Shown: piece by piece, positions 900 to 2,856 of the stretch
Layout: every line of letters starts with the position of its first letter
Numbering within the stretch: the first letter of the stretch is position 1
Source of the DNA: Escherichia coli
GTDB lineage: Bacteria > Pseudomonadota > Gammaproteobacteria > Enterobacterales > Enterobacteriaceae
NCBI RefSeq assembly: GCF_030013205.1
Contig: NZ_CP122648.1
Length of the DNA stretch: 64,000 bases
Direction: 5' to 3' (one strand)
Program-made: the position numbers

Positions 900-2856
900 T
901 AAGCAATCAATGTCGGATGCGGCGCGAGCGCCTTATCCGACCAACATATCAGGACGGAATGATCGCAATGAACATGCCAATGACCGAAAGAATAAAAGCA
1001 GGCAAGCTATTTACCGATATGTGCGAAGGCTTACCGGAAAAAAGACTTCGTGGGAAAACGTTAATGTATGAGTTTAATCACTCGCATCCATCAGAAGTTG
1101 AAAAAAGAGAAAGCCTGCTTAAAGAAATGTTTGCCACGGTAGGGGAAAACGCCTGGGTAGAACCTCCCGTCTATTTCTCTTACGGTTCCAACATCCATAT
1201 AGGCCGCAATTTTTATGCAAATTTTAATTTAACCATTGTCGATGACTACACGGTAACAATCGGTGACAACGTACTGATTGCACCCAACGTTACTCTTTCC
1301 GTTACGGGACACCCGGTACACCATGAATTAAGAAAAAACGGTGAGATGTACTCTTTTCCGATAACGATTGGCAATAACGTCTGGATCGGAAGTCATGTGG
1401 TTATTAATCCAGGCGTCACCATCGGGGATAATTCTGTTATTGGCGCGGGTAGTGTCGTCACAAAAGACATTCCACCAAACGTCGTGGCTGCTGGCGTTCC
1501 TTGTCGGGTTATTCGCGAAATAAACGACCGGGATAAGCACTATTATTACAAAGATTATAAAGTTGAGCCTTCAGTTTAAATAAGCACTGAAATAAATGTC
1601 GGATGCGCCATTGGGCACATCCGACAATAATTCACTCTTCCATTATCTGGCGAAACAAGCGTCGCATCATGCCTCTTTGACCCACAGCTGCGGAAAACGT
1701 GCTGGTGCAAAACGCAGGGTTATGATCATCAGCCCAACGACGCACAGCGCATGAAACGCCCAGTCCATCAAGTAATTGCCACTGATACTACGCAGCACGC
1801 CAGAAAACCAGGGAGCAAGCCCGGCGATGATAAAACCGATCCCCTGCATAAACGCCACCAGTTTGCCAGCAATAGCCGGTTGCGCAGAGTGATCGAGCGC
1901 CAGCAGCAAACAGAGCGGAAATGCGCCGCCCAGACCTAATCCACACACCATTGCCCACAATACCGGCAATTGCAGCGGCAGCCAGATAAAGCCGCAGAAC
2001 CCCACCAGTTGTAACGCCAGCGCCAGCATCAAAAGTTTCCGCCGATCCTGATGGCGAGCCATAGCAGGCATCAGCAATGCCCCTGCTGCTTGCCCAAGCG
2101 TCATCAATGCCAGCAAGGAACCGCTGTACTGCGCGCTGGCACCAATCTCAATATAGAAAGCGGGTAACCAGGCAATCAGGCTGGCGTAACCGCCGTTAAT
2201 CAGACCGAAGTAAACACCCAGCGTCCAGGCGCGGGGAGTAAATACCACGCGAACCGGAGTGGTTGTTGTCTTGTGAGAAGAGGCGACCTCGCGGGCGCTT
2301 TGCCACCACCAGGCAAAGAGCGCAACAACGGCAGGCAGCGCCCACCAGGCGAGTGTTTGATACCAGGTTTCGCTATGTTGAACTAACCAGGGCGTAATGG
2401 CGGCACCAAGTCCACCGCCGCCCATCAGAGCCGCGGACCACAGCCCCATCACCAGTGGCGTACGGTGCTGAAACCGCCGCTTAATTACCGAAGGCATCAC
2501 TGCCTGAATGATGCCGATCCCCACCCCACCAAGCAGTGCGCTGCTAAGCAGCAGCGCACTTTGGGGGTAAAGCTCACGCATCAATGCACCGACGGCAATC
2601 AGTAACAAACTGATGGCGACGCTGCGACGTTCGCTGACATGCTGATGAAGCCAGCTTCCGGCCAGCGCCAGCCCGCCCATGGTAACCACCGGCAGAGCGG
2701 TCAACAGGGCTGCCACGCTAAAGCTCATTCCACTCGCCTGACGTAATTGCGGTAGCAGTGGTCCGACGGAGGTGAGCAGTGGTCGCATATTAAGACCAAT
2801 CAGCACCAGAACCAGCAGCATCGTGAACGTCTTTTGATGGTCGCGCATGGTTGTCA

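What the first reader, a model, noticed from the sequence alone, without database searches (positions are those of the whole stretch)
1580..1666. Shared hairpin at the lacA-cynX junction, with a related palindrome reused downstream of prpE
TGTCGGATGCGCC...CATCCGACA at 1597-1626 forms a 9-bp stem and is followed on the cyn strand by a U-run, so it probably terminates cynTSX and perhaps lac from the other side. A closely related TGTCGGATGCG...CGCATCCGACA palindrome recurs at 7803-7832 and a REP variant at 912-941, so these are members of a dispersed REP family used as operon punctuation.
Basis: seen in the sequence. Interest (0 to 1): 0.25.

Follow-up and report, generated by a model that had tools for sequence, protein, structure and literature searches.

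The report
REP-derived hairpin ending the cyn operon
The hairpin between lacA and cynX is an ordinary E. coli REP-type repeat that looks like a one-directional transcription terminator for the cyanate operon; the only unusual point is that it was copied together with the last 26 bases of the nearby prpE gene.

Summary
The window is the E. coli lac-cyn-cod-prp region from a non-K-12 strain. Positions 1597-1626 form a palindrome in the 87-nt spacer between the convergent lacA and cynX genes. On the cyn strand it is a 13-bp, -23 kcal/mol hairpin followed directly by UUUAUUU, a textbook intrinsic terminator. On the lac strand it has a C·A mismatch and no U-tract.

It shares the arm TGTCGGATGCG with the palindrome at 7803-7832 (5 nt after the prpE stop) and with the REP at 911-943 (lacY-lacA). 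K-12 has annotated REPs in the same three spacers (REP29, REP26, REP30), so this is known biology.

Three corrections:
- Sites 1 and 2 are symmetric derivatives. They lack the GTAG tag and the AA-GC bulge that define E. coli REPs.
- Their similarity runs 56 nt, not 30. It includes the last six prpE codons and the stop, and it occurs nowhere else in 5,426 E. coli genomes, so site 1 is a segmental copy of the prpE end.
- The junction is polymorphic. K-12 carries an unrelated Y-type REP there. About 532 genomes have lost lacA by REP×REP recombination, and 986 have no cyn operon.

Termination is inferred, not measured. Interest is low.

The parts
1597..1626 (-). REP-derived symmetric palindrome. 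It forms the hairpin of the putative cynTSX intrinsic terminator: 13 bp with one G·U, loop CAAU, -23.3 kcal/mol on the cyn strand. On the lac strand it is 9+3 bp with a C·A mismatch, -20.4 kcal/mol.
   Evidence: (I7)
1587..1596 (-). U-rich tail (UUUAUUUCAG on the cyn strand) directly 3' of the hairpin. On the lac strand the same bases are the A-tract before the hairpin.
1627..1652 (+). Non-coding copy of the prpE 3' end (5-nt spacer, stop and last six codons). It matches 7833-7858 at 20 of 26 positions, in the same register relative to the palindrome.
   Evidence: (D1)
1658..1675 (+). Half-REP-like sequence AGCGTCGCATCATGCC(TC), resembling the right arm of a Y-type REP. It overlaps the cynX stop codon (1667-1669) and is present in all junction alleles examined.
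   Evidence: (D17)
1577..1579 (+). lacA stop codon, 17 nt before the hairpin.
1667..1669 (-). cynX stop codon, 40 nt before the hairpin on the cyn strand.
7803..7832 (-). Symmetric REP-derived palindrome 5 nt after the prpE stop. It is the paralogue of 1597-1626, with 13 bp and -23.2 kcal/mol on the prpE strand.
7833..7858 (-). prpE 3' end: 5-nt spacer, TAA at 7838-7840 and the codons for RQAMEE. This is the source of the 26-nt flank copied to 1627-1652.
7755..7790 (+). Canonical Y-type REP, GTAG followed by GCCTGATAAGACGCG-TCAG-CGTCGCATCAGGC with the AA-GC bulge. With 7803-7832 it forms a two-unit BIME, the counterpart of the four-unit K-12 REP26.
911..943 (+). Classical Z-type REP between lacY and lacA, the counterpart of K-12 REP30. 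It has the AA-GC bulge, but its tag is GTTG instead of GTAG. The stem starts 9 nt after the lacY stop.

Best explanation
The element at 1597-1626 is a REP-derived palindrome in the 87-nt spacer between the convergent lacA and cynX genes.

When the cyn operon is transcribed, the RNA folds into a 13-bp G+C-rich hairpin followed at once by UUUAUUU. RNA polymerase therefore most likely stops here by the intrinsic, Rho-independent route, which ends cynTSX and keeps it from reading antisense into lacA. The U-run comes from the A+T-rich unique sequence just after the lacA stop, and the repeat supplies only the hairpin. It is thus one of the 'coincidental' REP terminators.

On the lac strand the same DNA gives a slightly weaker hairpin with no U-tract. 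There it most likely acts only as a pause site and a 3'-exonuclease barrier for lacZYA mRNA, with real termination left to Rho further downstream.

In origin it is not an independent REP insertion. It is part of a 56-nt segment (palindrome plus the last 26 nt of prpE) copied from the prpE end 6.2 kb away, and it replaced the Y-type REP/BIME that K-12 has at this junction.

Shown: the anatomy, the paralogy and the allele distribution. Inferred: termination, its polarity and the copying route.
For: Anatomy and energetics:
- It is the strongest terminator-like site in 600-8400, with 13 pairs, 8 G-C pairs, a 4-nt loop and the tail TTTATTTCAG.
- Hairpin energy is -23.3 kcal/mol on the cyn strand and -20.4 on the lac strand. 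Folds beat all 200 shuffles.
- It lies 40 nt after the cynX stop and 17 nt after the lacA stop.

REP descent:
- The 11-mer arm is identical to that of the canonical REP at 911 and of the prpE-side palindrome. There are 7 hits against 1.69 expected.
- K-12 has annotated REPs in the same spacers.

Other alleles also place a REP hairpin before a U-rich run on the cyn strand:
- K-12: GCCUGAUAAGCGCAGCGUAUCAGGC followed by AAUUUUUAUAAUUU.
- A24/U13A type: followed by AAUUUUGCUUAUUU.

Literature:
- Most REPs lack a poly-U tract and only a few are coincidental intrinsic terminators. About 60% lie between convergent genes (bioRxiv 10.64898/2026.03.23.713779).
- In K-12 a Rho termination region lies on the lac strand inside antisense cynX at 360877 (PMC7815308). 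This fits lac-strand read-through of the junction REP.

Paralogy:
- The direct repeat is 56 nt at 80% identity (D1).
- The flank matches at 20 of 26 positions in fixed register (binomial P about 5e-8) and is the best of all 26-mers in the window.
- Across 5,426 genomes, every second place listed for the junction query is the prpE end.
- The PrpE C-terminus aligns with the acetyl-CoA synthetase C-terminus, so the coding copy is the original.
Against: - There is no 3'-end mapping for this allele. Published Term-seq data are from K-12, which has a different REP here, and they list no 3' ends for lacA, cynX, prpE or lacY because these operons are off in the media used.
- A 13-bp stem is at the long end for intrinsic terminators, and the U-tract is interrupted (UUUAUUU).
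- The about 532 lacA-less genomes keep the palindrome but with a poorer tail (UUAAUUGCUU). The U-run is therefore not indispensable.
- 986 genomes have no cyn operon at all.
- The terminator scan as a whole is not enriched over shuffles, with 11 found against 8.6 expected.
- The copying mechanism is unresolved. The 10 nt CTGAAATAAA left of the palindrome has no identified source.
Confidence: 0.7

Rival explanations
1. It is a true bidirectional terminator. The single hairpin ends both cynTSX and lacZYA.
For: - The palindrome folds on both strands, at -23.3 and -20.4 kcal/mol.
- It lies between convergent genes.
- An A-tract (AAAUAAA) precedes it on the lac strand.
- 78 REPs fall inside predicted bidirectional terminators, and convergent genes with a REP between them are expressed more highly.
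Against: - The lac-strand tail AAUAAUUCACUCUU has only 3 U in its first 8 nt, and the scan called no + strand terminator.
- The hairpin has a C·A mismatch on the lac strand.
- In K-12, lac-strand transcription reaches a Rho-dependent site about 270 nt inside antisense cynX.
- cynX read counts rise about 20-fold when lac is induced. This hints at read-through, although strandedness is unknown and the allele is the K-12 one.
Confidence: 0.15
2. It is a neutral relic. The palindrome is a dead REP derivative and recombination scar with no selected role in transcription, and the hairpin-plus-U arrangement is accidental.
For: - It lacks GTAG and the bulge, so it cannot be a REP transposase substrate.
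- The junction is highly polymorphic, with four or more alleles plus IS insertions.
- The adjacent 26-nt prpE-tail copy is clearly non-functional and is diverging: 19 of 26 positions match between the two junction variants.
- The window strain has no REP in the cynR-codA spacer where K-12 has two BIMEs.
Against: - The palindrome is much better conserved than its flank between the two junction variants: 29 of 30 against 19 of 26.
- All lacA-containing alleles examined place a REP hairpin directly before a U-rich run on the cyn strand.
- A hairpin of -23 kcal/mol followed by UUUAUUU should stop RNA polymerase whether or not it was selected to do so.
Confidence: 0.15
3. Its main role is post-transcriptional. 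It acts as a 3'-exonuclease barrier that stabilises cynX and/or lacA mRNA, the classical REP stabiliser role, rather than as a terminator.
For: REPs protect upstream mRNA from 3'-5' exonucleases in specific operons, and REP325 both stabilises and attenuates. The hairpin is stable on both strands.
Against: REPs have no uniform effect on mRNA half-lives genome-wide. This role does not exclude termination, and the U-tract is unexplained by a stabiliser-only role.
Confidence: 0.1

Closest known systems
E. coli REP / palindromic units (Y, Z1, Z2) and BIMEs; K-12 REP29, REP26 and REP30
   Same: - It is extragenic, lies at a 3' UTR and is a G+C-rich palindrome of about 30 nt.
- Its arm sequence (T)GTCGGATGCG is identical to that of canonical REPs 700 bp and 6 kb away.
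- It occupies the same intergenic spacers as annotated K-12 REPs.
- The neighbouring 7755-7790 is a canonical Y unit, and 911-943 is a Z unit with the bulge.
   Different: - Sites 1597-1626 and 7803-7832 are symmetric: both arms are of the GATGCG type.
- They have no GTAG tag and no AA-GC bulge, the two features required for recognition by TnpA-REP.
- The site-1 sequence is not homologous to K-12 REP29, which is a Y unit plus a truncated Z unit.
- Rfam naRNA4, a model built from a REP pair, does not detect site 1 at E<=1.
Intrinsic (Rho-independent) terminators, including 'coincidental REP intrinsic terminators' (REPt42, REPt127, REPt285, named in bioRxiv 10.64898/2026.03.23.713779)
   Same: A G+C-rich hairpin is followed immediately by a U-rich tract on the cyn strand, downstream of the last gene of the operon.
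   Different: Function has not been measured. The U-tract is on one strand only, so it is not a symmetric bidirectional terminator. The stem is long at 13 bp.
REP/BIME-mediated chromosomal rearrangement and intergenic polymorphism (own knowledge, not checked here: Shyamala et al. 1990, EMBO J, REP at duplication join-points; Bachellier et al. 1997, Genetics, BIME polymorphism and IS1397)
   Same: - lacA is deleted exactly within the shared AATGTCGGATGCG of two REPs.
- The cyn operon is absent, with a single BIME joining lacA to codA.
- The number of REP units varies at prpE-codB and cynR-codA.
- IS1397 is inserted in a REP loop.
   Different: The 56-nt copy carries 26 nt of unique coding DNA along with the repeat. 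Simple REP×REP crossover does not predict this.

Membership tests
E. coli REP (Y/Z1/Z2 palindromic unit) | Palindrome of 20-50 nt able to form a stem-loop | tested here: met
   1597-1626 folds with 13 bp (- strand) or 9+3 bp (+ strand). Sites 7803-7832, 7755-7790 and 911-943 also fold.
E. coli REP (Y/Z1/Z2 palindromic unit) | Conserved GTAG tetranucleotide next to the palindrome (definition from PMC8266576) | tested here: not met
   - Site 1 flanks are AAATAAA and ATAATTC, with no GTAG or CTAC on either strand.
- Site 7803-7832 flanks are GCATGG and ATACC, again with none.
- By contrast, 7755-7758 is GTAG, and 911-943 ends in CAAC (GTTG on the - strand), one mismatch.
E. coli REP (Y/Z1/Z2 palindromic unit) | Conserved AA-GC mismatch (bulge) in the stem | tested here: not met
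   Sites 1 and 7803-7832 pair GGATGCG with CGCATCC (CACATCC in site 1), so the canonical bulge is absent. The bulge is present at 911-943 (GATGCG/CTTATC) and 7755-7790 (GATAAG/CGCATC).
E. coli REP (Y/Z1/Z2 palindromic unit) | Arm sequence matching the family | tested here: met
   TGTCGGATGCG is exact at 911, 1597 and 7803 (+ strand) and 7822-7832 (- strand). There are 7 hits with up to 1 mismatch against 1.69 expected. 911-942 is 97% identical to a unit of K-12 REP26.
E. coli REP (Y/Z1/Z2 palindromic unit) | Exclusively extragenic, usually in a 3' UTR | tested here: met
   All four units lie between stop codons or in intercistronic spacers.
E. coli REP (Y/Z1/Z2 palindromic unit) | Hundreds of dispersed copies per genome | not testable with these tools
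   Only 64 kb is held. Within it, the only confirmed REP units are in the first 8 kb. Copy number is known from the literature for K-12: 355 REP elements with 697 units.
Intrinsic (Rho-independent) terminator, cyn strand | G+C-rich hairpin followed at once by a U-rich tract, downstream of the operon's last stop codon | tested here: met
   It has 13 pairs (8 G-C), a 4-nt loop, -23.3 kcal/mol and the tail UUUAUUUCAG, and it lies 40 nt after the cynX stop.
Intrinsic (Rho-independent) terminator, cyn strand | RNA 3' end measured at the U-tract, insensitive to Rho inhibition | not testable with these tools
   Published K-12 Term-seq lists no 3' end for cynX, lacA, prpE or lacY, and K-12 has a different allele.
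Bidirectional intrinsic terminator (convergent genes) | U-tract after the hairpin on both strands | tested here: not met
   The lac-strand tail is AAUAAUUCACUCUU, and no + strand terminator was called at this site.
BIME (REP plus inverted REP with a linker) | Two units in opposite orientation separated by a short linker | tested here: not met
   Site 1 is a single unit, with only a half-REP-like remnant at 1658-1675. The prpE-codB element (7755-7832) is a two-unit BIME. It matches Rfam naRNA4 at 53.2 bits, below the gathering score of 59.5.
Stop-proximal REP that stalls terminating ribosomes (own knowledge, not verified here: Liang, Rudd and Deutscher 2015, Mol Cell) | REP hairpin within about 15 nt of the upstream stop codon | tested here: not met
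   At site 1 the distances are 17 nt (lacA) and 40 nt (cynX). The distance criterion is met for prpE (5 nt) and lacY (9 nt). The effect on translation was not tested.

The most novel reading that the evidence does not exclude
The lacA-cynX palindrome did not arrive as a mobile REP. It arrived as part of a 56-nt piece of chromosome (palindrome plus the stop and last six codons of prpE) copied 6.2 kb, in direct orientation, from the prpE end. It replaced the ancestral BIME at the junction. This would be a transposase-independent way, by duplication and collapse or by templated break repair, for REP hairpins to spread locally together with unique flanking DNA. At the new site the copy happened to form a cyn terminator. 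It also supplied the direct repeat that later deleted lacA in about 10% of sequenced E. coli genomes.
Probability: 0.55. Interest if true: 0.3.

Novelty: already known. Interest (0 to 1): 0.15.

Why it matters
As stated, the finding is textbook E. coli biology. REP hairpins sit at operon ends, a few of them happen to be followed by a U-run, and those act as terminators.

What this locus adds is modest. It is a clean natural example of REPs both shaping transcription and reshaping the chromosome within 8 kb:
- Different strains have unrelated REPs at the same convergent junction, each placed before a U-rich run on the cyn strand.
- REP×REP crossovers account for a lacA-less lac operon in about 532 of 5,426 complete genomes.
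- They probably also account for the lacA-codA junction that lacks the cyn operon in 986 genomes.
- One REP copy carries a traceable scar of its source gene.

This is useful for anyone annotating 3' ends outside K-12 or using lacA or cynX as markers. It does not open a new question.

Tried and rejected
- **Chance palindrome.** Rejected. The arm 11-mer is enriched (7 hits against 1.69 expected) and the folds beat all shuffles.
- **Known RNA family.** Rfam at E<=1 over 1-10000 found only sub-threshold naRNA4 (REP325-derived) hits at 7758-7832 and 884/903-942, and nothing at 1597-1626.
- **The 26-nt flank as a generic REP-flanking (BIME linker) motif.** Rejected. A 76-nt query against 5,426 genomes found at most 3 places per genome. 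Every listed place other than the junction itself is the prpE end.
- **Outgroup polarisation of the junction alleles.** It is a MAG labelled Citrobacter whose junction is the window-type allele (one substitution in the lacA end in the stretch read), so it gave no outgroup information.
- **RefSeq annotation of REPs.** The copy of NC_000913.3 held here lists no repeat features in this stretch. REP numbers were taken from a preprint supplement instead.
- **Literature on mapped cyn and lac terminators.** This includes Sung and Fuchs 1988 and work on the lacY-lacA REP. Nothing is held in the searchable library, and the review that turned up in a search for the stop-proximal-REP work did not contain the phrase.
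- **K-12 Term-seq.** It lists no 3' ends for these genes.
- **Canonical REP membership of sites 1 and 2.** Rejected on GTAG and the bulge.
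Full report
**1. Where we are**

The window starts in the E. coli lac operon and runs opposite to the MG1655 numbering (annotation of the identical strain; K-12 region):

| Gene | Window coordinates | Strand |
|---|---|---|
| lacY | 81-902 | + |
| lacA | 968-1579 | + |
| cynX | 1667-2848 | - |
| cynS, cynT | downstream of cynX | - |
| cynR | 4100-5023 | + |
| codA | 5063-6361 | - |
| codB | 6336-7595 | - |
| prpE | 7838-9724 | - |

The junction segment 1480-1760 is 100% identical to E. coli N3 (CP031609). It is only 83% identical, with an indel, to K-12-type genomes. The window therefore does not come from K-12.

**2.

Site 1, at 1597-1626, is TGTCGGATG-C-GCC-ATTG-GGC-A-CATCCGACA.
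- On the lac (+) strand it has a 9-bp stem, a C·A mismatch and 3 more pairs (-20.4 kcal/mol).
- On the cyn (-) strand the mismatch becomes G·U. This gives 13 uninterrupted pairs and a 4-nt loop (-23.3 kcal/mol).
- On the cyn strand the hairpin is followed directly by UUUAUUUCAG.
- The consensus scan ranks it first among terminator-like sites in 600-8400, with 13 pairs, 8 of them G-C. That scan overall is not enriched over shuffles: 11 found against 8.6 expected.

The palindrome at 7803-7832 and the REP at 911-943 are also as described. The arm TGTCGGATGCG with up to 1 mismatch occurs 7 times against 1.69 expected, and no shuffle out of 100 reached 7. A looser scan for REP-arm motifs found no confirmed REP beyond the first 8 kb. 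The later hits that I read (29444, 44435, 54334) have no palindromic partner arm; 5960, 42505, 52046 and 62125 were not inspected.

**3. What the elements are**

They belong to the E. coli REP/BIME repeat system. In K-12 the same four spacers carry annotated REPs (supplement of bioRxiv 10.64898/2026.03.23.713779):
- REP30, lacY-lacA
- REP29, lacA-cynX
- REP28, codA-cynR
- REP26, prpE-codB

The published definition of an E. coli REP is an imperfect palindrome preceded by GTAG, with a conserved AA-GC bulge. Both features are required for cleavage by the REP-associated transposase (PMC8266576). Against that definition:

| Element | GTAG tag | AA-GC bulge | Verdict |
|---|---|---|---|
| 7755-7790 | GTAG | present | canonical Y unit |
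| 911-943 | GTTG (one mismatch) | present | Z unit with degenerate tag |
| 1597-1626 | absent | absent | symmetric REP derivative |
| 7803-7832 | absent | absent | symmetric REP derivative |

The two symmetric elements have both arms of the GATGCG type. They are REP-derived and presumably immobile. Rfam's REP-pair-derived model naRNA4 detects 7758-7832 below threshold (53.2 against 59.5 bits) and 903-942 weakly. It finds nothing at site 1.

**4. Sites 1 and 2 are closer than family members**

The direct repeat between them is 56 nt (1597-1652 against 7803-7858, 80% identity, family D1). It runs 26 nt beyond the palindrome.
- At the prpE site those 26 nt are the 5-nt spacer, the TAA stop and the codons for RQAMEE.
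- At the lacA-cynX site they are non-coding.
- The flank matches at 20 of 26 positions in fixed register (binomial P about 5e-8). It is the best match of any 26-mer in the whole window, the next best being 18.

A 76-nt junction query against 5,426 complete E. coli genomes finds at most three places per genome. Every listed place other than the junction itself is the prpE 3' end. The flank is therefore not a generic REP or BIME linker motif.

The PrpE C-terminus (…DPASLDQIRQA) aligns with the C-terminus of acetyl-CoA synthetases in the PDB. The coding copy is therefore the original and the junction copy is derived.

How the segment was copied is not resolved. Two routes fit: a 6.2-kb tandem duplication that later collapsed by deletion, or repair of a break using the prpE-side repeat as template. 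The 10 nt CTGAAATAAA left of the palindrome has no identified source.

**5. The junction is polymorphic**

K-12 and O157 carry an unrelated structure at the lacA-cynX junction: a Y unit (TGCCTGATACGCTGCGCTTATCAGGCCTAC), a 16-nt linker and a truncated Z unit.

Approximate census of 5,426 complete genomes:

| Allele | Genomes | Evidence |
|---|---|---|
| Window-type (identity >=95%) | about 614 | |
| lacA-less: lacY joined to cynX through the palindrome | 532 | |
| No cyn operon: one intact BIME joins lacA to codA (CFT073, NC101, U13A type) | 986 | |
| K-12/O157 type, including IS-interrupted variants | the remainder | by subtraction |

- In the lacA-less allele the breakpoint lies inside the AATGTCGGATGCG shared by the lacY-lacA REP and the junction palindrome. 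This indicates REP×REP recombination that removed 686 bp.
- The cyn-less arrangement fits recombination between REP29 and REP28.
- IS-interrupted variants include IS1397 inserted in a REP loop in strain A24 and IS1 in VL40.

Elsewhere in the region:
- K-12 has four REP units at prpE-codB where the window has two.
- K-12 has a tandem duplication of [106 bp of the cynR 3' end + hairpin + BIME] in the cynR-codA spacer. The window has no REP there.

Between the two palindrome-bearing junction variants the palindrome is conserved at 29 of 30 positions, while the prpE-tail copy has drifted to 19 of 26.

**6. How it most likely works**

*Cyn strand.* The hairpin plus UUUAUUU has every sequence feature of an intrinsic terminator, 40 nt after the cynX stop. 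The U-run comes from the A+T-rich unique DNA just after the lacA stop.

The K-12 and A24/U13A alleles also place their different REP hairpin directly before a U-rich run on this strand: AAUUUUUAUAAUUU and AAUUUUGCUUAUUU. This is the 'coincidental REP intrinsic terminator' case that the recent literature treats as the exception, since most REPs lack a poly-U tract.

*Lac strand.* The hairpin is weaker and the tail is AAUAAUUCACUCUU. No terminator was called.

In K-12, direct RNA sequencing with and without bicyclomycin places a Rho termination region on the lac strand at 360877. That is about 270 nt inside antisense cynX (PMC7815308, supplementary file 2). The lac-strand role is therefore more likely pausing or exonuclease blocking, with Rho finishing the job downstream.

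All of this is inference for the window allele, because no 3'-end data exist for it.

**7. Comparison with known systems, and verdict**

The kind of element and its proposed roles are already known. Four details need correcting:
- Termination is one-directional rather than shared.
- The palindromes are symmetric REP derivatives that fail two defining REP features.
- The site-1 element is a strain-specific allele unrelated to K-12 REP29.
- Sites 1 and 2 share a 56-nt segmental paralogy with the prpE end, not just a motif.

Interest is low. The side observations (the prpE-tail scar and the REP-mediated loss of lacA and of the cyn operon in large fractions of sequenced strains) are tidy examples of known REP/BIME plasticity.

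Noticed in passing
window 909-921 and 1595-1607; L005 600-630: About 532 of 5,426 complete E. coli genomes (for example 2013C_3678, E2865, NCTC9064) have no lacA. lacY is joined to cynX through the palindrome. The breakpoint lies inside the AATGTCGGATGCG shared by the lacY-lacA REP and the lacA-cynX palindrome, which indicates a REP×REP deletion of 686 bp.
   Followed up: yes
L009 800-930 (E. coli U13A); compare window 1580-5066: 986 of 5,426 genomes (CFT073, NC101, U13A type) have no cynRTSX. A single intact Y-linker-Z BIME joins the lacA stop to the codA stop. Its left flank is that of K-12 REP29 and its right flank that of REP28.
   Followed up: partly
window 5024-5066 versus L001 (K-12) reverse-complement 3600-3950: The cynR-codA spacer is about 39 nt in the window, with a plain hairpin GCCACTGACACAGGTCAGTGGC and no REP. 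In K-12 it is about 336 nt and contains a tandem duplication of [106 bp of the cynR 3' end + hairpin + Y-linker-Z BIME]. This is a second case of a REP/BIME duplicated together with a gene's 3' end.
   Followed up: partly
window 7755-7832 versus L001 1093-1270: The prpE-codB BIME has two units in the window and four in K-12 (REP26). The window's 7803-7832 reads as a hybrid of the left arm of K-12 unit 2 and the right part of unit 4. That fits loss or gain of one Y-Z repeat.
   Followed up: partly
window 7743-7758: There is a 7-bp tandem duplication (GTGGGTA GTGGGTA G) directly at the GTAG tag of the Y unit. K-12 has a single copy, cagtgggtaggcctg. It sits where the REP transposase is reported to cut. 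I have no explanation for it.
   Followed up: no
L006 760-800 (strain A24); L007 700-760 (strain VL40): IS1397 is inserted in the loop of the Z unit of the K-12-type lacA-cynX BIME (gtaggccggataaggtg|IS). In another strain IS1A sits about 50 nt after lacA.
   Followed up: partly
window 1658-1675: The cynX stop codon (1667-1669) lies inside a half-REP-like sequence, AGCGTCGCATCATGCC, which resembles the right arm of a Y unit. It is present in every junction allele examined. The end of cynX may have been shaped by an old REP.
   Followed up: no
window 7833-7840 and 900-912: The REP hairpins start 5 nt after the prpE stop and 9 nt after the lacY stop. That is within the roughly 15-nt range reported to stall terminating ribosomes and lower expression of the upstream gene (Liang, Rudd and Deutscher 2015; own knowledge, not verified here).
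   Followed up: no
window 917-1579: The longest lacA ORF (220 aa) starts at an ATG inside the REP arm (GGATGCGG, 917-919). The annotated 203-aa LacA starts at 968. The 220-aa LacA quoted in some papers probably reflects this REP-internal ATG.
   Followed up: no
window 1667-2848: RefSeq marks cynX of the identical strain N3 as frameshifted. In the window, however, the frame is open for 393 aa, the same length as the O157 annotation. This is probably an annotation artefact.
   Followed up: no
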